A stretch of 64,000 nt of DNA from a virus (lineage: Duplodnaviria; Caudoviricetes), in IMG/VR virus record IMGVR_UViG_3300002835_000001, positions 96,001 through 160,000 of that record. One strand, given 5' to 3'. A program made the position numbers and the translations under genes. Numbering within the stretch: the stretch's first letter is position 1; every line of letters begins with the position of its first letter. Shown one piece after another: positions 801 through 15,984 of the stretch. Below the pieces are notes generated by a model. The model searched no databases and was not told the DNA's origin. It was given only the letters and a program-made list of their open reading frames with translations.

Positions 801-1385
801 TTACATAGCACCTAAAAACATTCCCGTAAATAAAAAGTAATCTGAGTAGAATCTACCAACACCCCCACCAAAATATGGTCGAACGCTAACATAATCACCT
901 ATACCTAAATAAATGATACCATGTGTATGAATACCATCTACGTGATTCGCAACGGAACCATGACCATATATGTTTAATGGGGTATATCCTTCATTCCAAG
1001 AGTCTACACCATTTTTACCAAATCCAAAATGGATATATCCGGATGTTGAATTGTTATCATTGTGATAATATGCTTGTGCATAAAAATAATAATGACCAGC
1101 TAATGGTGCGGTGAATCTACCTGTTGAATTGCTAAAACCAGAACCAACTTGTGTTGAGGTATAACCCATTTGACTGCCAACTTCTCTCCACGCTGTTCCA
1201 CCAAAATTTGCGGAGTACATCCACGTAGCTACAGTTCCACGGGCATTAAAAGATGGTTGTCCCGATGCCCGTAGGTTTGTACCAACACTTAAATTACCAT
1301 TCAAGGATACTCCCGTATCAAACGCACCTGAGTTTTGATTTATTGTTGATTCAGAATATGTTGTATCTCCTACGTATATTGCCAT
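801..1385 (-). CDS. C1q-like domain adhesin / receptor-binding protein
   Basis: FNARG...FSNSTGRFTAPLAGHYYF...YLGIGDYVSV...FTG pattern of the C1q/TNF-like jelly roll. Confidence 0.8.
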   Translation of the reverse strand: MAIYVGDTTYSESTINQNSGAFDTGVSLNGNLSVGTNLRASGQPSFNARGTVATWMYSANFGGTAWREVGSQMGYTSTQVGSGFSNSTGRFTAPLAGHYYFYAQAYYHNDNNSTSGYIHFGFGKNGVDSWNEGYTPLNIYGHGSVANHVDGIHTHGIIYLGIGDYVSVRPYFGGGVGRFYSDYFLFTGMFLGAM

Positions 1386-1388
1386 AAT

Positions 1389-1973
1389 TTAACCTATTAA
1401 ATATCCACAAAATAATGTATAACTACCATAAAGTTTACCAATTGTACCACCCCAACAAGGAATCACGCTAGCGTAATCCCCAACGCCTAAATTCATTATT
1501 GCCGATACATTTATACCATCTGAGTGATTAACTAATTCCCCATGACCATAAATATTATATGGTGTTTGACCATTATTCCAACTCACATTACCATTTAATG
1601 CCAATTGATAATGAACATACCCCGATGTACTATTGCTATCAATATAATAGTATGTTGAGGAGTGAAAATAATACTTCCCCGCAACTGGCGCTGTGTATCT
1701 ACCAGTAGATGTGCTGAATCCATATGATCCAGCACCTTGTTGAGATACTCCCCAACCTACGGGACTCCCCAATTCTCTACATCCTGTTCCACCAAACGAC
1801 GACCCATAAATCCAAGCACCACTTCCATTTGCATTAAATGCCGGTTGAACACCAATCGTTGTTGAATAAGCCGAGGGTGATGGTTGAACCAAATTACCGG
1901 TCAACGCTAACGCACCACTGGCTCCAGCTATTGTATTGTTACTATATGTTGCTCCTCCTAAATAAATTGGCAT
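1389..1973 (-). CDS. C1q-like domain adhesin / receptor-binding protein
   Basis: PAFNANG...FSTSTGRYTAPVAGKYYF...LGVGDYASV...FCGYLIG; paralog of 801..1385. Confidence 0.8.
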   Translation of the reverse strand: MPIYLGGATYSNNTIAGASGALALTGNLVQPSPSAYSTTIGVQPAFNANGSGAWIYGSSFGGTGCRELGSPVGWGVSQQGAGSYGFSTSTGRYTAPVAGKYYFHSSTYYYIDSNSTSGYVHYQLALNGNVSWNNGQTPYNIYGHGELVNHSDGINVSAIMNLGVGDYASVIPCWGGTIGKLYGSYTLFCGYLIG

Positions 1974-2263
1974 TATAAAAAGGGATCAGGTGATGGGTTT
2001 ATCATGTCACCATACACATCTGGTTGTACTTGACTTCTTTCTTCAGCTGAAACAATGTTTGATGCCATAACAATTTCTTCTTTTGACCCAGATATTGTTT
2101 CACCCGCAGCTAATTTTCTTGTTATCTCATTACTTACAATTTCATCAATTGCAGATTCACATCTTGCAAATACAAAATTTTCAAACCAATCTTGTGGATC
2201 TACTGCAACCCATCTTAATGCTTTCTCTTGTGCTTCTGTTAATGTTACTGTGTACTGTGCCAT
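1973..2263 (-). CDS. Small acidic companion protein in the C1q cassette (possible assembly chaperone)
   Basis: 96 aa, translationally coupled to 1389..1973; function inferred from context only. Confidence 0.6.
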   Translation of the reverse strand: MAQYTVTLTEAQEKALRWVAVDPQDWFENFVFARCESAIDEIVSNEITRKLAAGETISGSKEEIVMASNIVSAEERSQVQPDVYGDMINPSPDPFL

Positions 2264-2276
2264 ATTTTTTGTTTTT

Positions 2277-2284
2277 TATAAATA
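2277..2284 (-). promoter_or_regulatory. TATTTATA motif
   Basis: 13 nt upstream of ATG 2263. Confidence 0.45.
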
Positions 2285-2294
2285 TAATTAATTT

Positions 2295-2888
2295 TTAACC
2301 AATTTTCCACCCCCAAAATCCTGTGTGTGCTCCATAAAGTCTAGTTGTATTTGCATTAATATAAACTCTAATGTCAACATAGTCACCCGCGGCTAATGAC
2401 ATAACTCCCGATACACAAATACCATCAGGATAATTTCCGGCAGCGCCATGTGTATAAATTGTATATGGTGTTTGACCATTATTCCAACCTAATCCACCAT
2501 TTTTTGCAAATTGTGGGTGAATATAACCGGCACCAGTGTTGTATGGTGAGGAAAGATCGTTCAACATATAAAGATTCATCATAAAATGATAATAACCCGC
2601 AGATGGTGCTGTGAATCTACCTGTTGATGTACTAAAATTACCTGTTCTATCTGTTGTTACCCATGCAATTCTTGAATCTAATATATTCCACTGTGCCGCA
2701 CCGTTCCAACCAGAATCGTTTGGGTACCTCCACGCATTTAATGATCCGTTTGCTCTAAATATTGGGTTGTTAATACCTCTTCTATGCCAACCACTAATTG
2801 CTAATGATGTGCTTGGTAATGACAATGTACCAGATGCTGGCGTAATTGTTTTGTCCCCAAATATTGTACCTTCTACATTTAATGGCAT
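2295..2888 (-). CDS. C1q-like domain adhesin / receptor-binding protein
   Basis: PIFRANG...FSTSTGRFTAPSAGYYHF...LAAGDYVDI...FWGWKIG; third paralog. Confidence 0.8.
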   Translation of the reverse strand: MPLNVEGTIFGDKTITPASGTLSLPSTSLAISGWHRRGINNPIFRANGSLNAWRYPNDSGWNGAAQWNILDSRIAWVTTDRTGNFSTSTGRFTAPSAGYYHFMMNLYMLNDLSSPYNTGAGYIHPQFAKNGGLGWNNGQTPYTIYTHGAAGNYPDGICVSGVMSLAAGDYVDIRVYINANTTRLYGAHTGFWGWKIG

Positions 2889-2889
2889 A

Positions 2890-5800
2890 CTATATTTTTT
2901 CTAAAACAATTTTAAATTTTTCTCCGTTATTATTGTTAATAATATACAGATTTTCTACACCTTCCTGTATAGTCCACGTACCTTTTGTTCCATCAATATC
3001 ATTTCCTTCAGGTTTATTCATGTTACTTAAGTGCAAGTCATTCGTATAAACGTTAGCCCAACCGAGTGATGCTGAACCTAAATTATATGAGTTATTTGAA
3101 CTTGGTAATAGGTTAGTGTGTGACCTAACATTACTGTCACTAGTACCTATAGAAAATAAGACAGTTCCCAAATCTTCTGAATCATAAAATCGGATACCAC
3201 CATATGATGATTGTGCACCCATGCGGATACCTGTATGCCACCTCAAATCTAATTTAGCATGATTACCTCCAAAGTTTTCCTTATTAGTACCTATGTAATA
3301 ATTAGTAATCGCATCAGTATCACCACCACCAAAAAATAATCTTGTGGAATCGACTGAACTATGTGCATTATTTGAATAGTTTCCACCTATAACCAAATAT
3401 CCACTTGTAACGGCATTACTTGATAGGGTTCCAGTACTACCGGCAGTTGTTGCACTTGTTGCGGTTGCGGCATTACCATCAATACTAACACCTGTTAATG
3501 TTTGTGAGGAACTTGCCCTACCTAATGATATTGATGTTGTACCAACGTGGAAAGATGAGTTGGCTAAATTGGCATTTGCAATTGCTGTACCGTTCCAAGT
3601 ACCACTTGTAATTGTACCAACTGTTGTAATAGCTAATGCATTTATTCTTGCTAAGGTTTCATCACCGGTGTTTGTTCCTGAAGATGCTCCACTATAGTTT
3701 GATGATGCAAATGTTCCAGCAATTTGCATATTACCAGATGTTGCGTTTAACGAAGCAATTGGTGCGGTACTTAATCTACCCCAAGTAAATCCTCTACCGG
3801 GGTCCGCATCATTCATTTGTGTTTTAATAGAATAATCTGTAACTGTACCATACTGATACAATGAAGAGTTACCCATACTGATTTTATATGCGTCTGAGTC
3901 CCAAAATTTAATTCCATTTCCATTACCCGCCGTTACGTTATAAAAACTATTTGAATTACTACCGTTTGGTGCGGTTGTTGCTGTAGCGGCATTACCATCA
4001 ATCGATACTCCAGTTAATGTTTGTGATGCACTTGCTCTACCTAAAGATATTGATGTTGTACCAACATGAAACGATGAGTTTGCTAAATTAGCATTTGCAA
4101 TTGCTGTACCATTCCAAGTACCACTTGTAATTGTACCAACTGTGGTGATTGCTAAAGCATTTATTCTTGCTAAGGTTTCATCACCGGTGTTTGTGCCACT
4201 TAGGTTTAGTAAAGAGGATACACTAGCAAGTGAAACAGGTGCGTAAGTACCATTACCAGTTGTACCAAAAAGCCATCCCACACCACTTGATATAGCAGTT
4301 GAACTAAAATTAGCATATCCCGCACCAGTACCCCATTGAGTAGCATAAGCAGCAGTACCATCAATACTAACTCCTGTTAACGTTTGTGATGCACTTGCCC
4401 GACCTAATGATATTGACGTTGTTCCAACGTGGAACGATGAATTTGTTAATTGTGCATTACCGATTCCTGTAACTTGTGCTGATCCGGAAAAAACACCGAC
4501 AGCATTTAATCTTGTTAATATACCTGACGCATAGTTTGTGGTTGCAGTTAAATCAATTTGTGCTGACCCTGATACAACAGATATACCATTAAAGAATGAA
4601 CCTGAATGTATTGTTGTTCCGTTTAATACTTGTGCACTACCTGAAACTGTACCTGAAGGTAAATTAGCTATTGTTTGTGCCGAACTTGAAACAATACCAC
4701 TTGGTATGTTACTTAATCCTGTGTATGATATTTGAGATGAACCAGATATAACCCCTTCGGTATTTAATTCTTTTTTAACCCCATCTAAGAAATGTACGGA
4801 ACCAGTATCTAATGTAAGTGTCCGTGTTGTTGAGATATCACCACCTCCACTTAAACCATTACCCGCACTAATTGATACGGCTGTATGATCAATATGTCTA
4901 TTTGCAACATATCCTGTTGTTGAGTCGTGTGCAATTTGAGATGAACCAGAAACTAGTGTAGGTTTATTTGCGACGTTAGAATATTCAACATACGATGCTG
5001 TTGCTGCGGTGCCTAATAAATTAGTTCCAACACCATTTGCCAATGTTGAAATATCGAGGAAGGCACCTCTTGCATTACCACCTTGTTCAAAAAATCTCAA
5101 TCTATTTTGCCAAACATCTATTGTTACACCATCACCCGCAAGTGTTGTGTTGGTTATTGCTTTACCTAATAATATTTCACCACCCTCGTCTCCACCAGCA
5201 GCATTTACTGTTAATTTATTACCACCAGCAACAATTAATGAACCTGTAATTTCAGTATTATTATTTAGACTAATTTTACTTCCATTATCAAAAATACTTG
5301 AAGTGGTTAAATGGTGTCCGTGTCCATTGTCCTCAACCTTGGTTAAAAAATTCCCAACTAGTGTTTGTGTGTTATCGATACCTGTACCTAACGGCCCATA
5401 TAATAAAATACTTGCGTCATCGGTTCCAACATCTGAATGTTGGAATTTCCAATTGTTTGTTAGTGAGTCATAAAACAAGGACGCAGTGACGTTTGTTGAC
5501 CCAGAATCAAAAACGGAAATACCCGCATATCTAATTGCAGGTGTGTCCGAATTTAGTATAATTTTATTCGTACCAATACTAACGGCTGATGCTGTTATAT
5601 TTTCTAAAGATGATGAACCTTGTACAATTAAGTTTTGAGAGATATAAAGTGAACCTGTTATCGTTTGAGTACCCTGAAATATATTTGAACCGGTTGTTGC
5701 ATAGCTACCAGTTTTAGATTCAATTGAATCTACCCGATTTTTTATTCCAAGAGTTGTGGTTGCAATACTAGAACTTAAACCACTTGTTGTTGTTGCAATA

Positions 5801-7776
5801 GAGGAAGATAAACTTCCAATACTAGAACTTAAACCAGATGTTGTTGTTGCAATAGAACTAGACAAACCCCCAATTGAAGATGTTAACGATGAACTTAAAC
5901 TTGTTATGGTACTTGTTAATCCTGATGTTGTTGTAGCAACACTAGAACTCAACTCCACAATACTTGTTGAAACAGAAGAACTAAAAGTTAAATAACCTGT
6001 TGTTCCTGTTATAATAACTTGAACCGAACCAGATATGATTGATTCGCTATCTAATTTGTTTTTAATAGTAGTATTAATTGAACTACTAAATGTATTTAAA
6101 CTACTTGTTGTTGTTTCAATAGAATCTATCCGATTTTTTGCTCCGATGGTTGTGGTTGCTATTGAACTTGAAAGAAACCCAATAGAAGAACTTAATCCTG
6201 ATGTTGTTGTTGCAATACTTGAAGATAAACCCCCAATACTTGTAGATACCGATGAACTTAACGAACTAATTGTTGAATTAATTGAACTTGATATACTTCC
6301 AATACTACTTGTTAAAGAAGAACTTAAACTTGTAATTGTACTTGTCAGTCCACTTGTTGTGGTTGCAATTGAAGAAGATAAATTTCCTACACTAGAACTT
6401 AAACCAGATGTTGTAGTTGCTACCGATGACGATAAAGAACCAATACTAGAACTTAAACCACTTGTTGTTGTTGCGATAGATGAACTTAATCCTGATGTGG
6501 TGGTTGCAACTGATGATGATAAACTTCCAATAGAAGAACTAAGTCCACTAGTTGTTGTTGCCAATGAACTTGATAAAGAACCAATTGAGGATGTCAATGA
6601 TGAACTCACACTTGTTATGGTACTTGTTAATCCTGATGTTGTTGTTGCAATACTTGAACTTAATGAACCAATACTAGAACTTAATCCTGATGTTGTTGTT
6701 GCAATACTTGAACTTAATGATGTATTTCCACCTAATAATGAACCAATACTTGTAGATACTGAAGAACTAAATGATTGTAAATCAATTCCGTCAACATTAC
6801 CTGTTAAATCTATTGAACCACTAACAATTACTGTATCACCAAAAACTATGTTGGTTCCACCTGATGAAGTTATTTTAAAACCATCTTGTATTTGTGTTGT
6901 TCCCTTTATTGATATAAGACCATTTGTTGGGTCAAATAATATATCCCCACCGCCCGATGATTTTAATTCGATGTCACCATCGGCAGATTGTAATATAATT
7001 GAATCCGAACCAGCTTCTAATATTTTAATTGATTGACCTGTGTCAGTTGTAATTGTAAGTTCCTGTGAGGTACTTCCCAATACTTTGGTACCGTCAATAT
7101 ATAATGACCCTGAAGAAATGTAAACGTCTCTCCATTGATGTGTCGTACTACCTAAATCGTATGTATTATCTACTGATGGTATAATCGAACCAGATATGGT
7201 TTGACTACCTTTAAATAAGTTACTACCAGTCGTTGCGTAATTACTTTCAATCGTTGTTAATCTATTACTTTGTGAAACATCTGTTAAAGCAATTGATGAA
7301 CTTAATAATCCTAATGAACTTGATATTGAACTTGATATTGACGATGTATATGATTGAAATGTTGTTTCATCTAATTTACCTACTCCGACCGCAATACCAT
7401 TCAATGATAAGGTTCCTGCAATTGCTACCGAACCTGTAAATTGATGTACATCGTTGTTATCGTTACCAAACATAGATGAACCACTAGCGAAACTTGTAGT
7501 CATATAAGTTACCGATGAACTTACAATATAGTTGGTTGCAATAATTGACCCTGTAACGGATAAATCACCTTGAATTTGGGTATTTTTATTAACGGTAAAA
7601 CCCGTTGATGAAATTGATGCTGTGGCGTTTCCGCTTGCTATTTGTGATAGGTTTAGACCTGTAACACCTGATGCCGGAAGGTTATATAAACTTCCACCAT
7701 CCCCTTTAAATGAACCTGTAAATAGGGAAGCTGTTATTGAGCCTGAAACCGAGGCGATTGAACCGTAAAATTCCAT
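2890..7776 (-). CDS. Long tail fibre protein (Ser/Thr-rich shaft, shared C-terminal domain)
   Basis: 1628 aa; SSSIATTTSGL repeats, beta-repeat shaft, C-terminus YTNDLHLSN...WTIQEG.ENLYIIN shared with two other fibres. Confidence 0.8.
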   Translation of the reverse strand: MEFYGSIASVSGSITASLFTGSFKGDGGSLYNLPASGVTGLNLSQIASGNATASISSTGFTVNKNTQIQGDLSVTGSIIATNYIVSSSVTYMTTSFASGSSMFGNDNNDVHQFTGSVAIAGTLSLNGIAVGVGKLDETTFQSYTSSISSSISSSLGLLSSSIALTDVSQSNRLTTIESNYATTGSNLFKGSQTISGSIIPSVDNTYDLGSTTHQWRDVYISSGSLYIDGTKVLGSTSQELTITTDTGQSIKILEAGSDSIILQSADGDIELKSSGGGDILFDPTNGLISIKGTTQIQDGFKITSSGGTNIVFGDTVIVSGSIDLTGNVDGIDLQSFSSSVSTSIGSLLGGNTSLSSSIATTTSGLSSSIGSLSSSIATTTSGLTSTITSVSSSLTSSIGSLSSSLATTTSGLSSSIGSLSSSVATTTSGLSSSIATTTSGLSSSIGSLSSSVATTTSGLSSSVGNLSSSIATTTSGLTSTITSLSSSLTSSIGSISSSINSTISSLSSSVSTSIGGLSSSIATTTSGLSSSIGFLSSSIATTTIGAKNRIDSIETTTSSLNTFSSSINTTIKNKLDSESIISGSVQVIITGTTGYLTFSSSVSTSIVELSSSVATTTSGLTSTITSLSSSLTSSIGGLSSSIATTTSGLSSSIGSLSSSIATTTSGLSSSIATTTLGIKNRVDSIESKTGSYATTGSNIFQGTQTITGSLYISQNLIVQGSSSLENITASAVSIGTNKIILNSDTPAIRYAGISVFDSGSTNVTASLFYDSLTNNWKFQHSDVGTDDASILLYGPLGTGIDNTQTLVGNFLTKVEDNGHGHHLTTSSIFDNGSKISLNNNTEITGSLIVAGGNKLTVNAAGGDEGGEILLGKAITNTTLAGDGVTIDVWQNRLRFFEQGGNARGAFLDISTLANGVGTNLLGTAATASYVEYSNVANKPTLVSGSSQIAHDSTTGYVANRHIDHTAVSISAGNGLSGGGDISTTRTLTLDTGSVHFLDGVKKELNTEGVISGSSQISYTGLSNIPSGIVSSSAQTIANLPSGTVSGSAQVLNGTTIHSGSFFNGISVVSGSAQIDLTATTNYASGILTRLNAVGVFSGSAQVTGIGNAQLTNSSFHVGTTSISLGRASASQTLTGVSIDGTAAYATQWGTGAGYANFSSTAISSGVGWLFGTTGNGTYAPVSLASVSSLLNLSGTNTGDETLARINALAITTVGTITSGTWNGTAIANANLANSSFHVGTTSISLGRASASQTLTGVSIDGNAATATTAPNGSNSNSFYNVTAGNGNGIKFWDSDAYKISMGNSSLYQYGTVTDYSIKTQMNDADPGRGFTWGRLSTAPIASLNATSGNMQIAGTFASSNYSGASSGTNTGDETLARINALAITTVGTITSGTWNGTAIANANLANSSFHVGTTSISLGRASSSQTLTGVSIDGNAATATSATTAGSTGTLSSNAVTSGYLVIGGNYSNNAHSSVDSTRLFFGGGDTDAITNYYIGTNKENFGGNHAKLDLRWHTGIRMGAQSSYGGIRFYDSEDLGTVLFSIGTSDSNVRSHTNLLPSSNNSYNLGSASLGWANVYTNDLHLSNMNKPEGNDIDGTKGTWTIQEGVENLYIINNNNGEKFKIVLEKI
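3461..4195. repeat. Internal direct repeat of ~215 nt (3461-3676 and 3980-4195), plus a partial third copy at ~4352-4455
   Basis: Both copies encode GTNTGDETLARINALAITTVGTITSGTWNGTAIANANLANSSFHVGTTSISLGRAS(S/A)SQTLTGVSIDGNAATAT; offset 519 nt. Confidence 0.9.
4838..4955. repeat. 118-nt segment repeated at 12661..12778 in another fibre gene
   Basis: Both encode LVSGSSQIAHDSTTGYVANRHIDHT(A/S)VSISAGNGLSGGGD with few nucleotide differences. Confidence 0.9.
5690..6730. repeat. Degenerate tandem Ser/Thr repeats (SSSIGSL / SSSIATTTSGL)
   Basis: Seen directly in DNA (recurring ccaatactagaacttaa.cc.gatgttgt) and in the protein. Confidence 0.85.
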
Positions 7777-8225: not shown

Positions 8226-9869
8226 TTATGTGTATTTGTATCTTATTATTACTATTCCACTTCCGCCGTCTCCACCTTTATTTGTTGCATTATAGTGTGC
8301 ACCACCGCCGCCACCTCCACCACTATTTGTGCCTCCGTTGCCACCTGGAGTATTAGCCCATGTACAACACGCACCTCCACCACCTGCAGCACCTACACCA
8401 ACCGATTGTCCACCACCTAGTGCAGTACCTAAAGCACCACCGCCACCACCGCCAATACCACCATATCCACCTGTTGATAGTGAATAACTACCTCCACCAC
8501 CTCCACCACCAAAGTAAAATGGTTTACCTAAAATTCCTGTAAATTTACCCGCACCACCATTGGGTTGGTTGTTTCCATCAGCTCCCGCCGCTCCCGCTCC
8601 ACCACCTCCACCGGAGTAATATGCGTTACCTTGAAAACCCCCTCTGAATCCTTGACCGGAAGTACCCGCACCTGAACCATATGTTCCTGGAGCCACAAAA
8701 TCGTTATTATAACCTGCGGACCCACCGCCTGAACCTCCTGAGTTACCAAAATGTATACCTAACCCTTGTGTGTTATATGATACACCGCCCCAACCACCAC
8801 CTATAGCAGTTAAACCATTAAATGATGAATTACCTCCATTACCACCTGTTACCGTTGGGTGTCCTCCTGTTGTTCCAGCTGGCGCACCCGCACCACCTCC
8901 ACCAACAGTTATTACATATGAAGTTGGGGTTAAAATTGTTGTTCCTGTTAGAACACCTCCACCACCTCCACCACCACCCATATTTGTTCCACCTCCACCG
9001 CCACCAGCGGCAATTAGATATTCAACTTCTATTGAACCTGAACGAAGTGATGAAAGGGTAAACGTACCACTACTATTAAATCTATGTACTCTATATTCAC
9101 CAACAGTTGTGATAACACCACCTGTTGCAACTATTTTTTGTTGTTTAAGTGCTGCCCCTTCAACGGTTACTGTTGCCGATTCTAACTTTGCCTGTCTATT
9201 GTTTAATAGGTCAGATATTGTTGGTTCCGAACCATCACATAAGTCAACTCTTGGTTCAAAAAATTGTAATCTTGTTGTGTTATCACCACAATAGTAATGA
9301 TAAGTTCTATGATTAAGAGTTGTTGTACTAGGCCCGAATTTCATATCGTTACCTACGTTACATCCATTAATACCCGACACTTTACCACTACCTATAACCC
9401 ATCTACCTGTATCTGCGTGTTGATTTGAGACCGGATAAAAATGCGGAAAAACGTGACCAACAACTAAATACCATACATTTTGAGTAAAGGTACCGGTACC
9501 AACACAATCCCAATATGGGTTACATTCTTCACCACCATCTGATAATCTTATAACACATTGTCCACCACCATTTGTACCTAAGTAAAATGTTCCACCTGCA
9601 GAAGATGATGTTCGTTTAACCCAAACAGACATTCTATATAATTTTGTGTTATCAGCACTAAAAGAACTATGATTCCAACCACCATCGTCAGCAGCACTAC
9701 CATTCGCTCTTGTTTCCCATAAAACAGAACTATTACCAAAAGGGTCTGTGCCCATTACTCTTTCGTTTTCATCCGTACTACCATTTTGACTAAAAGAACC
9801 TATTCCACCTGAACCAGTTGTCCAAGAGTATGGATCTAAAATGTTTGTTTTCCTATAGAATATTGGCAT
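8226..9869 (-). CDS. Adhesin: N-terminal carbohydrate-binding-like beta domain plus C-terminal glycine-rich domain
   Basis: 547 aa; VEYLIAAGGGGGG...GGDGGSGIVIIRY is the typical phage Gly-rich domain. Confidence 0.75.
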   Translation of the reverse strand: MPIFYRKTNILDPYSWTTGSGGIGSFSQNGSTDENERVMGTDPFGNSSVLWETRANGSAADDGGWNHSSFSADNTKLYRMSVWVKRTSSSAGGTFYLGTNGGGQCVIRLSDGGEECNPYWDCVGTGTFTQNVWYLVVGHVFPHFYPVSNQHADTGRWVIGSGKVSGINGCNVGNDMKFGPSTTTLNHRTYHYYCGDNTTRLQFFEPRVDLCDGSEPTISDLLNNRQAKLESATVTVEGAALKQQKIVATGGVITTVGEYRVHRFNSSGTFTLSSLRSGSIEVEYLIAAGGGGGGTNMGGGGGGGGVLTGTTILTPTSYVITVGGGGAGAPAGTTGGHPTVTGGNGGNSSFNGLTAIGGGWGGVSYNTQGLGIHFGNSGGSGGGSAGYNNDFVAPGTYGSGAGTSGQGFRGGFQGNAYYSGGGGGAGAAGADGNNQPNGGAGKFTGILGKPFYFGGGGGGGSYSLSTGGYGGIGGGGGGALGTALGGGQSVGVGAAGGGGACCTWANTPGGNGGTNSGGGGGGGAHYNATNKGGDGGSGIVIIRYKYT

Positions 9870-9883: not shown

Positions 9884-10711
9884 TTAAACTCCAAACCTTG
9901 ATCTTCCGTTATTATAATTTTGTAAAATTTCGGTTGCCGTTAACGCTCTATTATAAATTCTCACAATTGAAACACCACCATTAAACCATCTTTCACCACT
10001 TGTACTAAATCCTCTACCAATATTTACATTACCCATAGTTCCCGTCCAATTTGCAAAAGTAAGACTTGACGCATTAGTACCATTATAATAACTTAAAAAA
10101 CTACTTGCACCTGTTTTAGTAATAACAGCACAATGTATTCCCGACGAACTTAATCCTGATGGTACAACATTGACACCATTATAATTACCTGCAGCGTCTC
10201 CAACAACCCATCCTAATGTTCCATTTGAATCTTGTTCTAATCTAGGTCCAATATTACTATAACCACTAGCACCTCCATTAAACACTAACCAATTACAATC
10301 AATTGGGTTTCTATAGTTAGAAACTGAATCTGATTTAAACCAAATTTCCACAGTAAAGGTTGAAAATGAACCCACATTACCAACACTTACAAAATCAGGA
10401 GACCCACTAAAATAAATTGACCCTCCTCCATTATTGTAAGAGACTGCCGTACCACCATTAAATGTTCCGTCATATCCATTACCACTCATATCTTTCCATT
10501 GAGTGTTGCAGTTTGTACAACCGGGATTTGATGAATAATATTGACAACCATATCCACAATCATAATAATTGGATGTATTGATATATGATGCATTATTTCC
10601 AACATCTAACCATAATACCATTCCCCGTGTAATTACTGCAGGACTTGCCGCCTCACCTGTTGGATTAAAATTTGTTGCCGAAAAAGTATTCCCCCCAATT
10701 ATAATTCCCAT
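9884..10711 (-). CDS. LamG/ConA-like lectin domain protein
   Basis: MVLWLDVG...WKDMSGNG...FTVEIW...FNGGVSIVRIYNRALTATEILQNYN...RFG. Confidence 0.85.
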   Translation of the reverse strand: MGIIIGGNTFSATNFNPTGEAASPAVITRGMVLWLDVGNNASYINTSNYYDCGYGCQYYSSNPGCTNCNTQWKDMSGNGYDGTFNGGTAVSYNNGGGSIYFSGSPDFVSVGNVGSFSTFTVEIWFKSDSVSNYRNPIDCNWLVFNGGASGYSNIGPRLEQDSNGTLGWVVGDAAGNYNGVNVVPSGLSSSGIHCAVITKTGASSFLSYYNGTNASSLTFANWTGTMGNVNIGRGFSTSGERWFNGGVSIVRIYNRALTATEILQNYNNGRSRFGV

Positions 10712-10720: not shown

Positions 10721-11497
10721 TTATCTACCAAACCTACCTCTTGTTGCTTGATAATATTCGTTTATTTCATAAGGATGTAAAACTCTATTATAAAGTGATA
10801 TCATTCCAATGTCACCCCAAGGTTGACTTGATGCATTTGGGTTATTTTGGTCTCCGTTGTTGTATGCACCAACAGAACAGAAACCATGTTTAAATCTTGC
10901 GTTTGAGCTTGAAATTGACCCCCGTATAACTCCCGCAGTTTCATTATAACTAAAAAGATGATAAGGTACCTCAGCGTCATACCATCTCCAAACTAACATA
11001 TCCCAATTTGAAGTATTATATGCTGGTAAACTTTGTTGACTAAATCCATTACTATTAAAACCGGTACCATTTGTATTATCATACATACCGATAGCCCATG
11101 CTCCTGATTGAATAATCACTTGGTGGTCGGGTCCTGAACTTAAACCTCTCAATAGTGTTCTCCATTCAGCAGTACTATTCTTAACTCTTGTCCAACAAAC
11201 ACATGTTACATTACCCGATAATGGTACGTCTGAACTTGTTTTCTTTGCACAACCATATGAACCATTGAAGTCCATATACTTTGGTCCTGATGAATTGTAT
11301 GCGGATGCGTTTATAATAAAATTATATCCATTTCCACTTAAGTCATTCCATGCGGTTCCACTACCAGGATATGATTCTACATCGCCAGCATCTAAGTGTA
11401 AGACCATTCCGTCCCGTGTAATTTTTGTTTTGAATATACCACCACTAGTGATGTCACTTGAACTTATTACCTTATTGTTTTTAACATATAGTGGCAT
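10721..11497 (-). CDS. LamG/ConA-like lectin domain protein
   Basis: MVLHLDAGDVESYPGSGTAWNDLSGNG...ISLYNRVL...YYQATRGRFG. Confidence 0.85.
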   Translation of the reverse strand: MPLYVKNNKVISSSDITSGGIFKTKITRDGMVLHLDAGDVESYPGSGTAWNDLSGNGYNFIINASAYNSSGPKYMDFNGSYGCAKKTSSDVPLSGNVTCVCWTRVKNSTAEWRTLLRGLSSGPDHQVIIQSGAWAIGMYDNTNGTGFNSNGFSQQSLPAYNTSNWDMLVWRWYDAEVPYHLFSYNETAGVIRGSISSSNARFKHGFCSVGAYNNGDQNNPNASSQPWGDIGMISLYNRVLHPYEINEYYQATRGRFGR

Positions 11498-11498: not shown

Positions 11499-13892
11499 TT
11501 ATATAATCTCTGTTAAATCTATTTTGAACTTCTTACCGTTCTTATGATTTATAATATACAGATTTTCTTGACCTTCCTGTATAGTCCAATCACCTGTTGT
11601 TCCATCTATTTCATTTCCACCTTCTTTACCTTCGTTACTTAGGTGTAAGTCATTGGTATATAAGTTGGCCCATCTAAGTGATGAACTACCTAAATTGTAT
11701 GAATTGTTTGCAAATGGAACCATATGACCATCTGTTTGAATTCTGATTCTTTGTACGGCATTTGACCAAAAATCTATATTTCCATTTTCTGTGTAAATAT
11801 TTAAACCTCCAGCTCCTGCCCACGATGATGCGTTTTGGTTTCCAAGCCAAATGTAAGCATTACGAGTACCCGCCTTAAAGTTCACTTGAACATATTCATT
11901 AGTCCCGGCTGATGTATTTTCAAATCTAACCATTTCACCACTTCCACGAGCATGTAATGTTAATGCCGGACTCACACCTACACCTAAACTACTAAATTGT
12001 ACTGCGTTACCCGTACCAACACTTTGGTTAATTGTATATGCGGTAATATTTGTGGCAGTACCACTAATATTCATAGATTGACCACTAAGTAATGCGGCCG
12101 CCGCTGCTGCTGTATAACTTCTATAATAGTAATCACTTGTATTATGTCCAGCAAAATAACCCATACCCGATGCATTTCTTTCAGATCCACCACCAGATGC
12201 ATTGAAATAGTTGTTAACAATATAACCGTTTGAGTCAGCAACAACTATTCTATTTGCAGTTCCGCTTGTTTGTGATGGTGTAAATCCACCGGCAGTCGTT
12301 GAATTTGTGGCCGATGTTGCATTTCCACTTAATGCTCCAGTAAATGTTGTTGCACTTACTGTTGAGAATGTTGGTGTTGATGTTGTTAATAACGCCTGAT
12401 TTAAATAAGTACCAAATCCCGTTGTTGATGTTAAACTAATTTGTGAAGAACCCGAAACAAGTCCTGATGGTATACTAGATATAGAACCAAAAGTTATTTG
12501 AGATGATCCAGATACGATACCAGACGGAATTCCAGTAAGAGAACCGAATGTTACTTGAGCACTTCCAGATATAACACCGTCCGCATTCATTTTGGTTTTT
12601 ACACCCGTAGTAAATGTTGCGGATGTTGTGTCAAGACTAATTGTCCGCGTAGATGATATGTCACCACCTCCACTTAAACCATTACCGGCACTAATTGATA
12701 CTGATGTGTGGTCAATGTGCCTATTTGCAACATATCCTGTTGTTGAATCGTGTGCAATTTGAGATGAACCAGAAACTAATGTTGTTCCTGTTGAGCTAAA
12801 TGTTCCATTAACAATTGTATTTGAAAGCATCGTAATCGTTGTTCCATCATCACTAATATTGCTATTGGTTAAATGTTCAATTCCTGTACTTTTAACTAAT
12901 CTGTTTGATGTGATATACGATTCATTACCTACATTATTATATGTCTCTGGACCCATTAACAAGACAGATGATGTAACTGAAGCTTGATTTTGGTGAACAA
13001 ATAGCCATTGATTATTAATTGAATCAAATAAAATTGAACCAGATACCTGTGGTGATGACCCACTATCAATAACTGCAAGTCCACCGAATCTAACGCTTGG
13101 ATTCAAAGCGTTAACGGTTATAATGTTATCGGCAATATTAAGAATTGATGAACTAACGTGTTGAATTGACGATGAACCAGCGACAATTAAATCTTGAGAG
13201 ATGAAAAGGGATCCGGTAATTGTTTGTGAACCTTGAAATATATTTGAACCAGTGGTTGCATAACTACCTGTTTTTGCTTCGATAGAATCGACCCGATTCT
13301 TTGTATTAAGAGTGGTAGTCGCAACTGAACTAGATAAACTTCCAATACTTGTAGATATACTTGAACTGAATGTTGAGTATCCCGTTGTTCCTGTTATTTC
13401 AATTTGTGATGAACCTGATGCAATACCTGATGGTTTTGAAGCGATATTATCCCAAGTTGTTTGAGTTATCGAACCACTCAACACATATCTACCATCATAT
13501 GATGATGTTAATTGTGATGAACCTGATACAATACCTGAAGGTATTCCCGTTAATCCTGAATATGTAATTTGTGATGAACCTGATACCAATGGTGTAACCG
13601 TTGATACGATACTACCTGATATTGTTTGATTACCAATAAAAGTATTTGAACCCGTAGTTGCTAAACTTGAACTATATGTGTTAAAAGAAGATGTTAACAA
13701 ATAACTTGGAGCCGAGGATGCTGTTAGAGCGTTTGTAATTGAACCACTCATTGTTAAATCACCCAATGTTAATCCTGTCATTCCTGATAGGTCGAGTGTA
13801 CCTCCTGAAAATGATATATTTGAACCACTTCCTGAAATAAATGATACTACATTACCCGAATTGTCTTTAAATTTAAATGCTCCGTTTGCCAT
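11499..13892 (-). CDS. Tail fibre protein with the shared C-terminal domain
   Basis: 797 aa; shares shaft modules with the other fibres; ends YTNDLHLSN...WTIQEGQENLYIIN. Confidence 0.8.
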   Translation of the reverse strand: MANGAFKFKDNSGNVVSFISGSGSNISFSGGTLDLSGMTGLTLGDLTMSGSITNALTASSAPSYLLTSSFNTYSSSLATTGSNTFIGNQTISGSIVSTVTPLVSGSSQITYSGLTGIPSGIVSGSSQLTSSYDGRYVLSGSITQTTWDNIASKPSGIASGSSQIEITGTTGYSTFSSSISTSIGSLSSSVATTTLNTKNRVDSIEAKTGSYATTGSNIFQGSQTITGSLFISQDLIVAGSSSIQHVSSSILNIADNIITVNALNPSVRFGGLAVIDSGSSPQVSGSILFDSINNQWLFVHQNQASVTSSVLLMGPETYNNVGNESYITSNRLVKSTGIEHLTNSNISDDGTTITMLSNTIVNGTFSSTGTTLVSGSSQIAHDSTTGYVANRHIDHTSVSISAGNGLSGGGDISSTRTISLDTTSATFTTGVKTKMNADGVISGSAQVTFGSLTGIPSGIVSGSSQITFGSISSIPSGLVSGSSQISLTSTTGFGTYLNQALLTTSTPTFSTVSATTFTGALSGNATSATNSTTAGGFTPSQTSGTANRIVVADSNGYIVNNYFNASGGGSERNASGMGYFAGHNTSDYYYRSYTAAAAAALLSGQSMNISGTATNITAYTINQSVGTGNAVQFSSLGVGVSPALTLHARGSGEMVRFENTSAGTNEYVQVNFKAGTRNAYIWLGNQNASSWAGAGGLNIYTENGNIDFWSNAVQRIRIQTDGHMVPFANNSYNLGSSSLRWANLYTNDLHLSNEGKEGGNEIDGTTGDWTIQEGQENLYIINHKNGKKFKIDLTEII

Positions 13893-13895
13893 TTT

Positions 13896-13903
13896 TATAA
13901 ATA
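13896..13903 (-). promoter_or_regulatory. TATTTATA motif
   Basis: 3 nt upstream of fibre ATG 13892. Confidence 0.55.
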
Positions 13904-13922
13904 GTTCATAGATTGAATTAGA

Positions 13923-14651
13923 TTAAAGTCCGAATCTACTTTTTTGAGTATTATAATTTTGTGTGACCATTGAACTTGTAAAACCAATACCTTTATAAAC
14001 TTTAACAGAAGATACCCTCATATTACCGTAGGTTCCACCCGCATTACCAATTAAAAGGGGTTCACTAGAATTGTTAACAGATTTACTAGTGAAATCACTA
14101 GAATCAACTAATGAGCCATTTACATATAGTGTAACTGTATTTGATATTCTTGTTACCACCCCGTGCATCCATCCGTTAACAATACCAGAATTTGAAACAC
14201 CACCTTCATATACACCATCGTTGGTATATAATCTAATGGCATTACTACTAGTTGATGTCATAACAATCCAATTTGATGCTGGCCATTTTGATGGAAAAGT
14301 ACCTATTATACCCTGATATGGTGTGGCTACCGATACAATATAAACCCAAACTTCAATTGTGAATTCTCCAGTGCCAAAACTCCAATTTGAAGAATATGGA
14401 ATTGTAATATAATCATTACTACCGTCAAGATTAATATAACCTTGATTATTACTACTAAATGTAGGTCCGTTTATTAATGTACCATGATTATTTTTTCCAG
14501 ACATATCATACCAATCTACACCAGAACCCGAATAAGATTCTAATGCCGATGCGTCTAAATGTAAAACCAATCCTCTTTCGATTATGTTTTTATAATCACC
14601 CACACTAGCGTGTGTTCCATCATATATGTGACCCCCAATATTAAACGGCAT
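13923..14651 (-). CDS. LamG/ConA-like lectin domain protein
   Basis: LVLHLDAS...WYDMSGKNNHGTLINGPTF...FTIEVWV...WMHGVVTR...QNYNTQKSRFGL. Confidence 0.85.
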   Translation of the reverse strand: MPFNIGGHIYDGTHASVGDYKNIIERGLVLHLDASALESYSGSGVDWYDMSGKNNHGTLINGPTFSSNNQGYINLDGSNDYITIPYSSNWSFGTGEFTIEVWVYIVSVATPYQGIIGTFPSKWPASNWIVMTSTSSNAIRLYTNDGVYEGGVSNSGIVNGWMHGVVTRISNTVTLYVNGSLVDSSDFTSKSVNNSSEPLLIGNAGGTYGNMRVSSVKVYKGIGFTSSMVTQNYNTQKSRFGL

Positions 14652-14661
14652 AATTTATATT

Positions 14662-15984
14662 TTATAATCCAAATCTATTTTTTTGTATATTATAATTTTG
14701 TGAAATTTCGGATAATGTTAAAATTCTTTCATATAATTTATATGAACCTAAAGTCATATTTGTATAACCACCATAACCAGGTGATGTACCATATAAATTA
14801 TATGTCCCTATTGAATGACAAACGATAGATGGTCCACCATTATATGTTGTACCTGTAAAACTACTATCAAGTGAACCATTAATATAAAATTTGTATTCAT
14901 TATTTTGTGTTGTGACAGTAATATGATACCAAGTTCCAACAGTTAAGGTTGCTTGTGAAAATGAATCTATAATATATGCTGAAGTATCATACCAAATAAA
15001 TTTCAATTTATTATTTGATGCGAATTGTAGTCTTAATTCAGGATTACCGCCAGAAGCGTCAGCCAAAGTCCACCAATATGAACCATTTCCTGTTGCATTA
15101 AATTTAACCCAAAACTCTGTTGATATGATTGAAGACGTTGAGCCGGCAAATAATGACGTAGGTAAATTTAACCAATCATTTGTACCGTCAAATATCAACG
15201 ATCCACCATTTGATGAACTATATGTTGGCCCATTAACTAACGTTCCTGTATCATTTCTTTTACTAGAACGTATATATTCTAATGTTAAATCTGTAACTTC
15301 AGTACCAGACGCTTCTCCAGCAATAATACAACATCTATCTGTAGCCGAACATGCAACATCTGCCTTAATTGCTGTCCAAGGACCTGTTTTGGATGTTGAT
15401 GAATATTGAACACTTAAATTAGTCCCACTTCTCACCCATTTAAACCAATATCCTGTTGTTGCACCTCCGCCACCTGAAATTGGTGAGTGATATTGGCCAT
15501 GATGTGATGCACTATACCCATTTGGAAATCCTGATGTACTTAATGATCCACCATAAGGCCCTGTAGGATCTGCCGAATATCCATTAAAGTCAAAATGGGA
15601 TACATTTGTACCATATATTATGGCAATGCCTCTAAAATCACGAGCCCAATATGCAACGACTTCAAAATCTTCATTTGCATTAAATGTCCTATCTAAAACC
15701 ACCGCAGAATAACCTCCTTGTGCCTCCGGCTCAGAACTCCAAACTCTACCACCATTTAATAAAGTTCCTTTTATGTGAAATGTTGATGGTTGTCTCCATC
15801 CTGTTGCGAAATCTGAATTTGTTATTGAACTACTAAGGTCATTAACAACTGTTCCGGTTTCAGGATAAGAATCGGGAGCACCTGCATCCATATGAAATAT
15901 TAAACCTCTATTAATTACATTTTTGTAATTTAAAGTTTTAACTATACTACTATTAACAATATTTCCATTTATATCTAAAGGCAT
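14662..15984 (-). CDS. LamG lectin with an inserted second beta domain
   Basis: LIFHMDAG...NDLS [~165 aa insert] NDTGTLVNGPTY...WYHITVT...QNYNIQKNRFGL. Confidence 0.8.
   Translation of the reverse strand: MPLDINGNIVNSSIVKTLNYKNVINRGLIFHMDAGAPDSYPETGTVVNDLSSSITNSDFATGWRQPSTFHIKGTLLNGGRVWSSEPEAQGGYSAVVLDRTFNANEDFEVVAYWARDFRGIAIIYGTNVSHFDFNGYSADPTGPYGGSLSTSGFPNGYSASHHGQYHSPISGGGGATTGYWFKWVRSGTNLSVQYSSTSKTGPWTAIKADVACSATDRCCIIAGEASGTEVTDLTLEYIRSSKRNDTGTLVNGPTYSSSNGGSLIFDGTNDWLNLPTSLFAGSTSSIISTEFWVKFNATGNGSYWWTLADASGGNPELRLQFASNNKLKFIWYDTSAYIIDSFSQATLTVGTWYHITVTTQNNEYKFYINGSLDSSFTGTTYNGGPSIVCHSIGTYNLYGTSPGYGGYTNMTLGSYKLYERILTLSEISQNYNIQKNRFGL

What the first reader, a model, noticed from the sequence alone, without database searches (positions are those of the whole stretch)
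801..15984. Eight adhesins of three unrelated folds share an N-terminal strand motif
Seen N-termini: MAIYVGDTTY (801), MPIYLGGATY (1389), MPLNVEGTIF (2295), MPIFYRKTNI (8226), MGIIIGGNTF (9884), MPLYVKNNKV (10721), MPFNIGGHIY (13923), MPLDINGNIV (14662). Consensus is M-(P/A/G)-hydrophobic-x-hydrophobic-x-G-x-x-hydrophobic, a probable beta-hairpin. The long fibres and companion genes mostly lack it. A shared leader on otherwise non-homologous domains suggests a common docking or assembly tag (inference).
Basis: partly seen in the sequence, partly recalled or inferred. Interest (0 to 1): 0.75.

Follow-up and report, generated by a model that had tools for sequence, protein, structure and literature searches.

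The report
Shared docking leader on fibre-tip lectins
In this large lake phage, and in many marine and freshwater phages, otherwise unrelated sugar-binding "tip" proteins all begin with the same ~20-residue leader and always sit just after a tail-fibre gene that ends in one conserved small domain. This looks like an undescribed plug-and-socket joint for swapping host-recognition heads, but physical binding has not been shown.

Summary
All eight N-termini are as quoted; the genes lie on the minus strand, so the N-termini are at the high coordinates. A motif written from them hits 8 of 12 ORFs in the cluster, 0 of 46 elsewhere in the window and 0 of 277 internal Met sites.

The bodies fall into three sequence-unrelated lectin-like families: C1q/TNF-like (3), Laminin_G_3 (4) and CBM-like plus Gly_rich_2 (1). 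A profile-profile comparison of the C1q and LamG families aligns only residues 1-19.

In 83 viral loci fetched through the fibre C-terminus, a leader HMM found 96 proteins from 11 unrelated families. All of them lie beside a fibre ending in the same ~75-aa module (..W.N.YT.DL.LSN..G.WTIQEG..L..N..GKKYKF.L.E). That module is strictly C-terminal in 73 of 73 full matches.

In the reverse test, C1q heads with the leader follow such a fibre in 10 of 11 contigs. C1q heads with other N-termini, or fused to fibres, never do.

Best reading (0.58): a plug (leader) and socket (fibre end) that mount exchangeable receptor-binding heads, often three per fibre. Binding is inferred only.

The closest known parallels are the KP32-type RBP2 docking peptide and gp37-gp38. 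Earlier scan notes describe analogous three-gene fibre tips in E. coli phages, but not this plug and socket pair.

The parts
2890..7776 (-). Tail fibre 1 (1628 aa). Its last ~75 aa (about 2893-3117) form the conserved C-terminal 'socket' module, long-loop subtype ..LSNMNKPEGND..
   Evidence: ORF. C-terminal module aligned. It matches the C-terminus of cyanophage P-SCSP1u fibre gp28 (E = 1e-30). AF2 gives pLDDT 85-95 for the last 50 aa.
2295..2888 (-). Tip protein p1 of the C1q trio (197 aa). The leader MPLNVEGTIF.. is encoded at 2829-2888. The start lies 1 nt after the fibre stop codon.
   Evidence: AF2 body 41-197 has the C1q fold (Foldseek E = 2e-6, TM 0.75 by target). Pfam C1q is below threshold.
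1973..2263 (-). 96-aa companion gene without the leader. It travels with C1q trios in other phages, whatever their N-terminal type.
   Evidence: Homologues follow C1q trios in L009, L071, L091 and L152.
1389..1973 (-). Tip protein p2 of the C1q trio (194 aa). Leader MPIYLGGATY.. is encoded at 1914-1973.
801..1385 (-). Tip protein p3 of the C1q trio (194 aa). Leader MAIYVGDTTY.. is encoded at 1326-1385.
11499..13892 (-). Tail fibre 2 (797 aa). The socket module is at about 11502-11726, subtype ..LSNEGKEGGNE..
10721..11497 (-). LamG-family tip protein (258 aa). Leader MPLYVKNNKV.. is encoded at 11438-11497. The start lies 1 nt after the fibre stop.
   Evidence: It falls in the LamG BLAST cluster and aligns in A4, but has no Pfam hit of its own.
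9884..10711 (-). Laminin_G_3 tip protein (275 aa). Leader MGIIIGGNTF.. is encoded at 10652-10711. It carries a 4-Cys insert after the first LamG strand.
   Evidence: Pfam PF13385, E = 1e-12. Alignment.
8226..9869 (-). Tip protein (547 aa). Leader MPIFYRKTNI.. is encoded at 9810-9869. It has a CBM4_9-like N-terminal beta-sandwich and a C-terminal Gly_rich_2 domain.
   Evidence: Pfam PF21722, E = 1.5e-10. Atlas structure neighbours are CBM_4_9 with TM about 0.5, a lead only. It does not align with the LamG profile.
7835..8224 (-). 129-aa companion gene without the leader (phrog_7759, function unknown).
   Evidence: A homologue occupies the same place in L022.
16239..18905 (-). Tail fibre 3 (888 aa). 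The socket module is of the short-loop subtype (..LSLSNGIGDYTIVEGEE..) with a short C-terminal tail, at about 16242-16466.
   Evidence: The same subtype occurs in L071, L073, L076, L078 and L109.
15986..16237 (-). 83-aa companion gene without the leader. It starts at an internal ATG 1 nt after the fibre 3 stop codon.
   Evidence: Small genes in the same position occur in L078 and L015.
14662..15984 (-). Two-domain tip protein (440 aa). Leader MPLDINGNIV.. is encoded at 15925-15984. The C-terminal domain is Laminin_G_3.
   Evidence: Pfam PF13385, E = 7.5e-18, residues 266-428.
13923..14651 (-). Laminin_G_3 tip protein (242 aa). Leader MPFNIGGHIY.. is encoded at 14592-14651.
   Evidence: Pfam PF13385, E = 8e-17. 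Alignment A4.

Best explanation
The three fibres each end in a small, highly conserved, strictly C-terminal beta domain, which I call the 'socket'. The 2-3 genes that follow each fibre encode lectin-like heads (C1q/TNF-like, LamG, CBM plus glycine-rich). Each head is preceded by the same ~20-residue N-terminal leader, the 'plug': M-[PAGS]-hydrophobic-x-hydrophobic-[GKN]-[GND]-x-[TS]-hydrophobic, then ..T-I-T-P-x-G. This is probably a beta-hairpin on a flexible linker. I propose that the plug attaches the head non-covalently to the socket at the distal end of the trimeric fibre. The fibre shaft would then be a constant scaffold, and the receptor-binding heads exchangeable cassettes. The commonest number of leader genes per fibre is three, and the paralogues are orthologous by position. 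The three sockets of one trimeric fibre probably therefore hold three different heads: a C1q A/B/C-like heterotrimer, or three different LamG/CBM monomers. Shown: the motif, its restriction to these genes, its association with the socket, the folds, and the strictly terminal position of both elements. Inferred: physical binding, stoichiometry, presence in the virion, and receptor binding.
For: 1. The leader is the only region shared by the C1q and LamG profiles (hhalign, residues 1-19 of both, E = 4e-4).
2. An iterated leader HMM on 615 unique ORFs from 83 viral loci finds 96 proteins. Ninety lie within four genes downstream of a socket fibre, and the other six lie in fibre clusters. None are fibres or unrelated genes. 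Their bodies form 11 BLAST-unrelated families.
3. Of 63 unique socket fibres with DNA downstream, 38 are followed by 1-3 HMM-positive leader genes, three being the commonest number. Most of the remainder start with a weaker M-small-hydrophobic-x-hydrophobic version. Where the next gene is a leader gene, the gap from fibre stop to its start is 1-2 nt in 28 of 32 cases.
4. In the reverse test on loci fetched through the C1q body, leader-C1q proteins have a socket fibre upstream in 10 of 11 contigs. Roughly 60 contigs with C1q heads on other N-terminal modules, or fused to fibre shafts, have none.
5. The socket ends within 0-5 residues of the C-terminus in 73 of 73 full-length matches among the best 150 of 12,143 hits, with no internal copy.
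6. The socket is far more conserved than the genes behind it. In this window the two socket subtypes are paired with the opposite tip families compared with close relatives, so socket and plug are interchangeable.
7. AF2 places residues 1-40 of the C1q tip outside the fold, with a hairpin at 3-5/8-10 (pLDDT about 50). The socket's last 50 aa are confidently modelled as a four-strand unit.
8. The same arrangement occurs in cultured cyanophages P-SCSP1u, P-GSP1 and S-CAM4 and in 9 of 10 MAG/SAG contigs from an independent collection.
9. Mizuno et al. 2014 noted that the N-terminal end of pelagiphage C1q genes recruits metagenome reads far better than the C1q domain (PMC3909814).
10. C1q trios keep positional orthology across lineages.
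Against: No direct evidence of contact exists. No solved structure covers the socket: it is unresolved in the P-SCSP1u map (PMC10575957). Locus L152 has three leader-like C1q proteins behind a fibre with a Peptidase_S74-type chaperone end instead of the socket, so the coupling is not absolute. The leader is a low-information motif, and its exact residues are no better conserved than the bodies. The high conservation of the socket could equally reflect a foldon-like trimerisation role. Two fibres in one virion carry near-identical sockets but different tip sets, so a purely plug-and-socket rule gives no specificity for which fibre receives which heads. Virion presence of the tip proteins is unproven: I found no proteomics for a phage with this system.
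Confidence: 0.58

Rival explanations
1. The leader is an assembly element of the tip proteins themselves. It would be a short N-terminal neck that brings three chains (paralogues or copies) together, or a handle recognised by the small companion or chaperone proteins. It would not contact the fibre's C-terminal domain. Attachment to the virion, if any, would use another surface.
For: Trios of paralogues with position-specific leader variants are the rule. Companion genes sit inside every tip cluster. L152 shows leader-like C1q trios behind a fibre without the socket. N-terminal necks are common in trimeric fibre heads (general knowledge).
Against: LamG and CBM heads are typically monomeric, yet they carry the same leader. 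The 96-aa companion follows C1q trios whatever their N-terminus (L091, L152), so it tracks the C1q body, not the leader. This reading does not explain why the leader is almost never found without the socket fibre directly upstream, nor why single-tip phages such as P-SCSP1u keep it.
Confidence: 0.15
2. The downstream proteins are tail-fibre assembly chaperones or transient caps, not virion adhesins. The leader would be the part that grips the nascent fibre C-terminus during folding, as with Tfa-type or cap-like chaperones.
For: Their position directly after the fibre gene, with translational coupling, is the classical place for Tfa or gp38-type chaperones. Intermolecular chaperones do grip the distal fibre end in Pam3 gp24-gp25 (PMC9608196). 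An Alteromonas-phage paper whose title describes fibre 'transient chaperone caps' was listed (PMC10579305) but not read.
Against: There is no Pfam or PHROG match to Tfa/Caudo_TAP families. The bodies are lectin-type binding folds (C1q/TNF, LamG, CBM, polyglycine-rich) that serve as receptor-binding heads in other phages. They are hypervariable and exchanged as cassettes while the fibre end is constant, which is the opposite of what a chaperone matched to its client would show. Homologues in S-CAM4 are annotated 'tail protein' (annotation only).
Confidence: 0.12
3. The shared leader and fibre end have no binding role. They would be conserved junction sequences that serve translational coupling or act as homology arms for recombinational exchange of tip cassettes.
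For: The 1-2 nt stop-start spacing is very regular. Cassette swaps map to this junction.
Against: The motif is kept at the amino-acid level with different codons, even within one genome. It persists across phages whose DNA is unalignable (no megablast match; socket identities of 30-77% at the protein level). The second and third tip genes keep the leader although they do not abut the fibre gene. The stop-start gap varies between 1 and 2 nt, so no single frame relation is conserved.
Confidence: 0.07
4. The leader docks the heads onto another virion component (baseplate, tail tube or another fibre segment) rather than onto the socket.
For: Nothing specific. It is simply not excluded, because no contact has been shown.
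Against: The system occurs unchanged in T7-like podoviruses of 38 kb (P-SCSP1u), T4-like cyanomyoviruses and a ~300-kb phage. These share no baseplate architecture. The only component that always accompanies the leader is the socket module.
Confidence: 0.05

Closest known systems
Branching domain of RBP1 plus conserved N-terminal docking peptide of RBP2 in KP32/K11/KP34-type Klebsiella podophages, and the related G7C, K1-5 and CBA120 systems (Latka 2019, PMC6872550; PMC13352976)
   Same: A short conserved peptide (29 aa in KP32 gp38) at the extreme N-terminus of an otherwise unrelated receptor-binding protein is necessary and sufficient to mount it on another RBP. Heads can be swapped behind the peptide. 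That is the same logic as proposed here.
   Different: In that system the partner is an internal T4gp10-like branching domain near the N-terminus of RBP1. Here the candidate partner is a ~75-aa module at the extreme C-terminus of a long fibre, with no Pfam family and no solved fold match. The peptides show no sequence relation. Here up to three heads follow each fibre. Binding is demonstrated there and not here.
gp37-gp38 long-tail-fibre tip of T2/T6/S16-type phages (PDB 6F45; Dunne 2018, summarised in PMC6851490)
   Same: A separate adhesin gene directly after the distal fibre gene caps the trimeric fibre end. One tip protein here and one relative carry polyglycine-rich domains (Gly_rich_2, ALK_LTK_GRD).
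   Different: gp38 attaches through an N-terminal three-helix bundle with three conserved Trp, as one monomer per trimer. Here the N-terminal element is a ~20-aa beta-hairpin-like leader. There is no GP38 or Gp38_N Pfam match, and usually three genes follow each fibre.
C1q-domain putative receptor-binding proteins next to pelagiphage tail fibres (Mizuno et al. 2014, PMC3909814)
   Same: The same kind of gene (C1q-like head encoded next to the fibre) was proposed as a receptor-binding protein. The authors saw that the N-terminal end is much more conserved in metagenomes than the head.
   Different: That work did not define the leader, its presence on non-C1q heads, or its link to a specific fibre C-terminal module.
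Complement C1q A/B/C heterotrimer (gC1q domains; PDB 1PK6 and others)
   Same: The same fold (Foldseek E about 2e-6). Three adjacent paralogous genes are kept orthologous by position, as with the C1QA/C1QC/C1QB genes (general knowledge).
   Different: There is no collagen stalk. The N-terminal part is the short leader. Heterotrimer formation is inferred here, not tested.

Membership tests
gp38 adhesin (Pfam GP38 PF05268 plus Gp38_N PF21721) | Sequence match to the GP38 or Gp38_N profiles | tested here: not met
   hmmscan of all eight tip proteins against Pfam-A at E <= 0.1 lists neither family.
gp38 adhesin (Pfam GP38 PF05268 plus Gp38_N PF21721) | N-terminal three-helix attachment bundle with conserved Trp (PMC6851490) | tested here: not met
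   The AF2 model of the C1q tip has strands at 3-5 and 8-10 and no helix in residues 1-40. The leaders contain no Trp.
gp38 adhesin (Pfam GP38 PF05268 plus Gp38_N PF21721) | Gene directly downstream of the distal fibre gene | tested here: met
   (1-2 nt gaps).
KP32-type RBP2 docking peptide / RBP1 branching domain | Short conserved peptide at the extreme N-terminus of otherwise unrelated RBPs | tested here: met
   hhalign aligns only residues 1-19 between the LamG and C1q families. Eleven body families carry the leader.
KP32-type RBP2 docking peptide / RBP1 branching domain | Partner carries a T4gp10-like branching domain | tested here: not met
   No Pfam family matches fibres 2 and 3 or the C-terminal 140 aa of fibre 1. 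The candidate partner is a C-terminal module with no PDB fold match.
KP32-type RBP2 docking peptide / RBP1 branching domain | Peptide required for incorporation into the virion | not testable with these tools
   This needs phage genetics or pull-downs.
C1q/TNF superfamily (Pfam C1q PF00386) | gC1q jelly-roll fold | tested here: met
   Foldseek against PDB gives C1QL1/C1QL3 gC1q at E = 2e-6, probability 1.00, TM 0.75 by target.
C1q/TNF superfamily (Pfam C1q PF00386) | Pfam profile above the gathering score | tested here: not met
   Scores are 18-21 bits against a cut-off of 23.7 for the three window proteins. Some homologues carry a precomputed PF00386 hit.
C1q/TNF superfamily (Pfam C1q PF00386) | Trimeric assembly | not tested
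   Only a monomer was folded. The trio and positional-orthology argument is indirect.
Laminin_G_3 (PF13385) | Pfam profile above the gathering score | tested here: met
   ORFs 9884-10711, 13923-14651 and 14662-15984 score 49-66 bits against a cut-off of 27.6. ORF 10721-11497 joins the family only through the BLAST cluster and alignment.
Tail fibre assembly chaperone (Tfa / Caudo_TAP) | Sequence match to Tfa families | tested here: not met
   No such family appears in the Pfam or PHROGs results.
Peptidase_S74 intramolecular chaperone (as the identity of the fibre 'socket') | S74 profile match at the fibre C-terminus | tested here: not met
   No Pfam hit for the socket. The neighbouring fibre 18902-23824 ends in a C-terminus that I read by eye as S74-like (no profile search was run on it), and it looks unlike the socket.

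The most novel reading that the evidence does not exclude
This is a universal three-socket joint. Every trimeric fibre of this type ends in three identical sockets that accept any leader-tagged head. One fibre therefore carries three different lectins at once: a complement-C1q-like A/B/C heterotrimer, or three different LamG/CBM monomers. This hot-swappable, combinatorial receptor-binding tip would be shared from 38-kb T7-like cyanophages and pelagiphage-like viruses to 300-kb Bacteroidota phages. Other N-terminal modules seen on C1q heads would be parallel 'plugs' for other fibre ends, which would amount to a docking code for phage host-range modules.
Probability: 0.3. Interest if true: 0.8.

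Novelty: new variant of a known kind. Interest (0 to 1): 0.66.

Why it matters
Host range in abundant aquatic phages (cyanophages, SAR11-type phages, lake Bacteroidota phages) is hard to read from sequence. The fibres are long and repetitive, and the real binding heads are unannotated small genes.

If the leader and socket are a docking pair, a simple rule locates the receptor-binding proteins in thousands of uncultured phage genomes: find the socket at a fibre's C-terminus, then read the leader-tagged genes behind it. The profile has 12,143 hits.

The pair would also explain the 'metaviromic islands' next to fibres, as cassette exchange at a constant joint. It would offer a compact (~20 aa) tag for mounting foreign binding domains on fibres in laboratory phage-host systems.

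It would extend the docking-peptide principle, so far shown experimentally only for Klebsiella and E. coli podophages, to a different structural solution at the distal end of fibres.

Tried and rejected
- **Complex prediction.** I submitted three copies of the fibre C-terminal 110 aa with three copies of C1q-tip residues 1-42, each with its own alignment. The tool returned 'no answer' (ipSAE 0.01-0.02 against a mark of 0.32; controls not run).
- **DNA search.** Megablast of window 1-16000 against the phage collection found no match.
- **Whole genome.** None is held for this window, so the genome-wide frequency of the motif could be measured only on the 64-kb window and on fetched loci.
- **PDB by sequence.** The search gave nothing for the 547-aa protein and only weak C1q hits for the C1q tip.
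- **Socket fold.** Foldseek of the socket model against PDB found nothing at E <= 0.001. The weak SH3/Tudor-like rows are not interpretable.
- **LamG versus the 547-aa protein.** hhalign of the LamG profile against the N-terminal half of the 547-aa protein gave probability 1.4%, so I do not call that domain LamG. Atlas neighbours suggest a CBM4_9-like fold, as a lead only.
- **Natural fusions.** I looked for fibre-socket-leader-head fusions. None appeared among 73 full socket matches or 88 fibres. One 1633-aa fibre (L122) has a leader-like segment (PLQIESTNVSF..) just before its fused C1q head but no socket. This is a single case and I have not interpreted it.
- **Frameshift or readthrough.** I considered that fibre and tip might be joined by a programmed frameshift or readthrough. 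I rejected this because the stop-start gap is 1 nt in some loci and 2 nt in others.
- **Virion proteomics.** I searched for proteomics of P-SCSP1u and found none in the structure paper or in the ISME J paper.

Full report
**1. The observation**

All genes in the region lie on the minus strand. The eight quoted N-termini are exact.

I wrote a pattern from the eight: M, then P/A/G, then hydrophobic at positions 3, 5 and 10. It hits 8 of 12 ORFs between 700 and 16000. It hits none of the 46 other non-overlapping ORFs in the window, none of the other 165 six-frame ORFs and none of 277 internal Met sites.

The codons that encode the motif differ from gene to gene: CCA/CCG/CCT/GCA/GGA, ATT/ATA/TTA/CTA/TTT and GGA/GGG/GGT. 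What is conserved is therefore the peptide, not a nucleotide signal. The fibres and three small companion genes (1973-2263, 7835-8224 and 15986-16237) lack it.

**2. The eight proteins**

- **C1q-like (3).** ORFs 801-1385, 1389-1973 and 2295-2888 give sub-threshold Pfam C1q hits. An AlphaFold2 model of 2295-2888 has a confident body at residues 41-197. Foldseek matches it to gC1q domains at E = 2e-6, TM 0.75 by target.
- **Laminin_G_3 (4).** Three proteins score above the Pfam gathering threshold. ORF 10721-11497 belongs to the same BLAST cluster and alignment.
- **The 547-aa protein (1).** It has a C-terminal Gly_rich_2 domain. Its N-terminal half does not align with the LamG profile. Its Atlas neighbours are CBM4_9-like, which is a lead only.

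So there are three sequence-unrelated families, all of beta-sandwich lectin type. A profile-profile comparison of the LamG and C1q families aligns residues 1-19 of both and nothing else (E = 4e-4). In the C1q model, residues 1-40 lie outside the fold at pLDDT about 50, with a small hairpin at 3-5/8-10.

**3. The fibres**

Three fibres (2890-7776, 11499-13892 and 16239-18905) end in the same module. It reads roughly ..NLGS..RWANVYTNDLHLSN-loop-G.WTIQEG.ENLYIIN..GKKFKI.L.E.

No Pfam family covers it. PHROGs places it at the C-terminal end of a 'tail fiber protein' family.

The only PDB sequence match is the fibre gp28 of cyanophage P-SCSP1u (E = 1e-30). The distal part of that fibre was not resolved in the cryo-EM map (PMC10575957).

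AF2 models the last 50 residues confidently (pLDDT 85-95) as four strands. The model has no significant fold match in the PDB.

Against 1.84 billion representative proteins, the profile finds 12,143 hits at E <= 0.001. Part of the signal comes from an upstream ..LGS..RW..Y.. unit that recurs many times along fibres. The complete terminal module, however, ends within 0-5 residues of the C-terminus in all 73 full matches among the best 150 hits. No internal copy was seen.

**4. Forward test of the association**

I fetched 80 viral loci through the fibre module and called ORFs in them.

- The window-derived pattern hits 38 of 177 genes lying 1-3 places downstream of such a fibre, against 5 of 330 other ORFs (odds ratio 18, p = 4e-14).
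- An HMM built from the first 18 residues and iterated on N-termini alone converges on 96 unique proteins. Ninety lie within four genes downstream of a socket fibre. The remaining six lie in fibre clusters that my fibre filter had missed. None is a fibre or an unrelated gene.
- With the first 25 residues removed, these proteins fall into 11 BLAST-unrelated families. These include C1q-like, LamG, two kinds of glycine-rich domain, weakly fibrinogen-C-like proteins and several families with no annotation.
- Of 63 unique fibres with DNA downstream, 38 have one to three HMM-positive leader genes (23 have three, 8 have two, 7 have one). Nearly all the rest are followed by a gene starting with a weaker M-small-hydrophobic-x-hydrophobic version.
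- Where the next gene is a leader gene, it starts 1-2 nt after the fibre stop in 28 of 32 cases.
- The pattern repeats in an independent collection: 9 of 10 MAG/SAG contigs, labelled Chitinophagales, Sphingobacteriales, Pelagibacter, Synechococcaceae and others.
- It also repeats in cultured cyanophages. In P-SCSP1u the next gene starts MAINIDSGKTIF, and P-GSP1 and S-CAM4 show the same arrangement.

**5. Reverse test**

I fetched 80 viral loci through the C1q body instead.

- C1q proteins that start with the leader have a socket fibre upstream in 10 of 11 contigs.
- C1q heads in roughly 60 other contigs carry different N-terminal modules (for example MASYSSFKKI.. trios, or MASTLKVNTI.H.GGT..) or are fused to the end of a fibre shaft. 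None of these has a socket fibre nearby.

Split heads with the leader thus go with the socket, while fused heads have neither element. That is what a non-covalent joint predicts.

The exception is L152. There, three leader-like C1q genes follow a fibre with an S74-type chaperone end.

**6. Modularity**

In close relatives, the socket subtype ..EGKEGGNE.. goes with the C1q trio, and ..MNKPEGND.. goes with the LamG trio. In this window the pairing is reversed. Socket subtype and head family are therefore interchangeable, and exchange has happened at this junction. The socket is 30-77% identical across phages whose downstream genes are unrelated.

**7. Why three**

C1q trios are orthologous by position within each lineage: p1 groups with p1, and so on, with strong branch support. 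The trio state recurs in at least four lineages. The LamG / LamG / CBM-plus-glycine-rich trio is likewise kept in order in L012, L014, L019, L021 and L022. A trimeric fibre offers three sockets. Three different leader-tagged chains per fibre is the simplest reading, but it is inference.

**8. Mechanism and rivals**

My best explanation (0.58) is a plug-and-socket joint that mounts exchangeable receptor-binding heads on a constant fibre end. The rivals are:

- **Self-assembly neck or chaperone handle (0.15).** The leader would assemble the tip proteins themselves, or be gripped by a companion protein.
- **Chaperone or cap function of the whole proteins (0.12).** Against this are the lectin folds, the absence of Tfa matches and the cassette-like variability.
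- **Junction sequence for coupling or recombination (0.07).** Against this is the codon variation, and the fact that the second and third tip genes keep the leader.
- **Docking elsewhere on the virion (0.05).** Against this is the presence of the system in podoviruses, myoviruses and a ~300-kb phage that share only the socket.

The socket's conservation could also reflect a foldon-like trimerisation role. That role is compatible with docking.

**9. Comparison with what is known**

- **KP32/K11/KP34-type pair.** The principle matches the RBP1 branching domain and the RBP2 conserved N-terminal peptide, for which deleting 29 residues abolishes incorporation and the peptide can carry a foreign head (PMC13352976). 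The partner domain, its position and the sequences all differ.
- **gp37-gp38.** Gene order and concept match the tip of S16-type phages, but gp38 uses a three-helix bundle with Trp residues (PMC6851490). The Pfam families are not matched.
- **Pelagiphage C1q genes.** Mizuno et al. 2014 already proposed C1q genes next to pelagiphage fibres as receptor-binding proteins, and noticed their conserved N-terminal end (PMC3909814). They did not define the leader or the socket.
- **Literature.** In five full-text searches I found no paper describing this leader, the socket or their pairing. Absence from these searches does not prove that no such paper exists.
- **Earlier scan notes.** These describe three-gene fibre tips in E. 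coli phages and other terminal peptide tags in this same phage group. I treated them as leads only.

**10. Verdict**

- **Classification.** I file it as a new variant of a known kind, namely docking-peptide mounting of receptor-binding proteins. It has wide distribution in aquatic phages.
- **Interest.** 0.66.

Noticed in passing
window 9884-10711 (protein residues about 49-70); L012:7203, L014:7127, L022:7422; C-terminal in L015:7784, L022:1180, L033:696: A 4-Cys mini-module (about YYDCGYGCQYYSSNPGCTNC) occurs as an insert after the first LamG strand in some tip lectins. In others it is a C-terminal extension. It looks like a mobile disulfide or metal knot.
   Followed up: no
L004:1138-2534; L008:1449-4700: In relatives, fibres ending in an S74-type chaperone are followed by three paralogues that share a different N-terminus (MASLQGTTVTTF.. 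or MASLKNLIINDTGYL..). This may be a second fibre/tip docking code.
   Followed up: no
L091-L099 (three ~310-aa genes each); L130, L146, L149, L153 and others: C1q-like heads in other phages carry alternative conserved N-terminal modules. Examples are trios beginning MA.Y.SFKKI.. and many ~170-aa proteins beginning MASTLKVNTI.H.GGT.AMTID. None is near a socket fibre.
   Followed up: partly
window 1973-2263; L009:6893, L071:5301, L091:5471 and 5723, L152:5896: The ~90-aa companion (M..YTV.L.D.E.KAL..) accompanies C1q trios whatever their N-terminal module or fibre type. It is probably specific to C1q heads, perhaps a chaperone.
   Followed up: partly
window 2893-3117 and 11502-11726 compared with L001-L022: The two socket subtypes are paired with the opposite tip families in this phage compared with its relatives. 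This amounts to a natural swap at the fibre/tip junction.
   Followed up: yes
window 23974-26409 (C-terminus ..VIDGGTYS); L010, L011, L079, L009: Several upstream fibre-like proteins end in a shared ..[ILV]DGG[TS][YF] C-terminus. This may be another conserved terminal joint in the fibre chain.
   Followed up: no
window 40-765; L014:10179, L015:8656, L020:9808: A conserved 241-aa gene (MNNIGFGIFCFGE.YY..) marks the downstream border of the tip cluster in many relatives, followed by further conserved genes. Its function was not examined.
   Followed up: no
L122:417-5318: A 1633-aa fibre with a fused C-terminal C1q head has a leader-like segment (PLQIESTNVSF..) directly before the head, but no socket module. 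It may be a fusion of a formerly split tip.
   Followed up: partly
window 18902-23824 and 16239-18905: The 1640-aa fibre ends in what looks by eye like a Peptidase_S74-type chaperone (no profile search run). It overlaps by 4 nt (18902-18905) the start of the 888-aa socket fibre, which suggests a chain of fibre segments.
   Followed up: no
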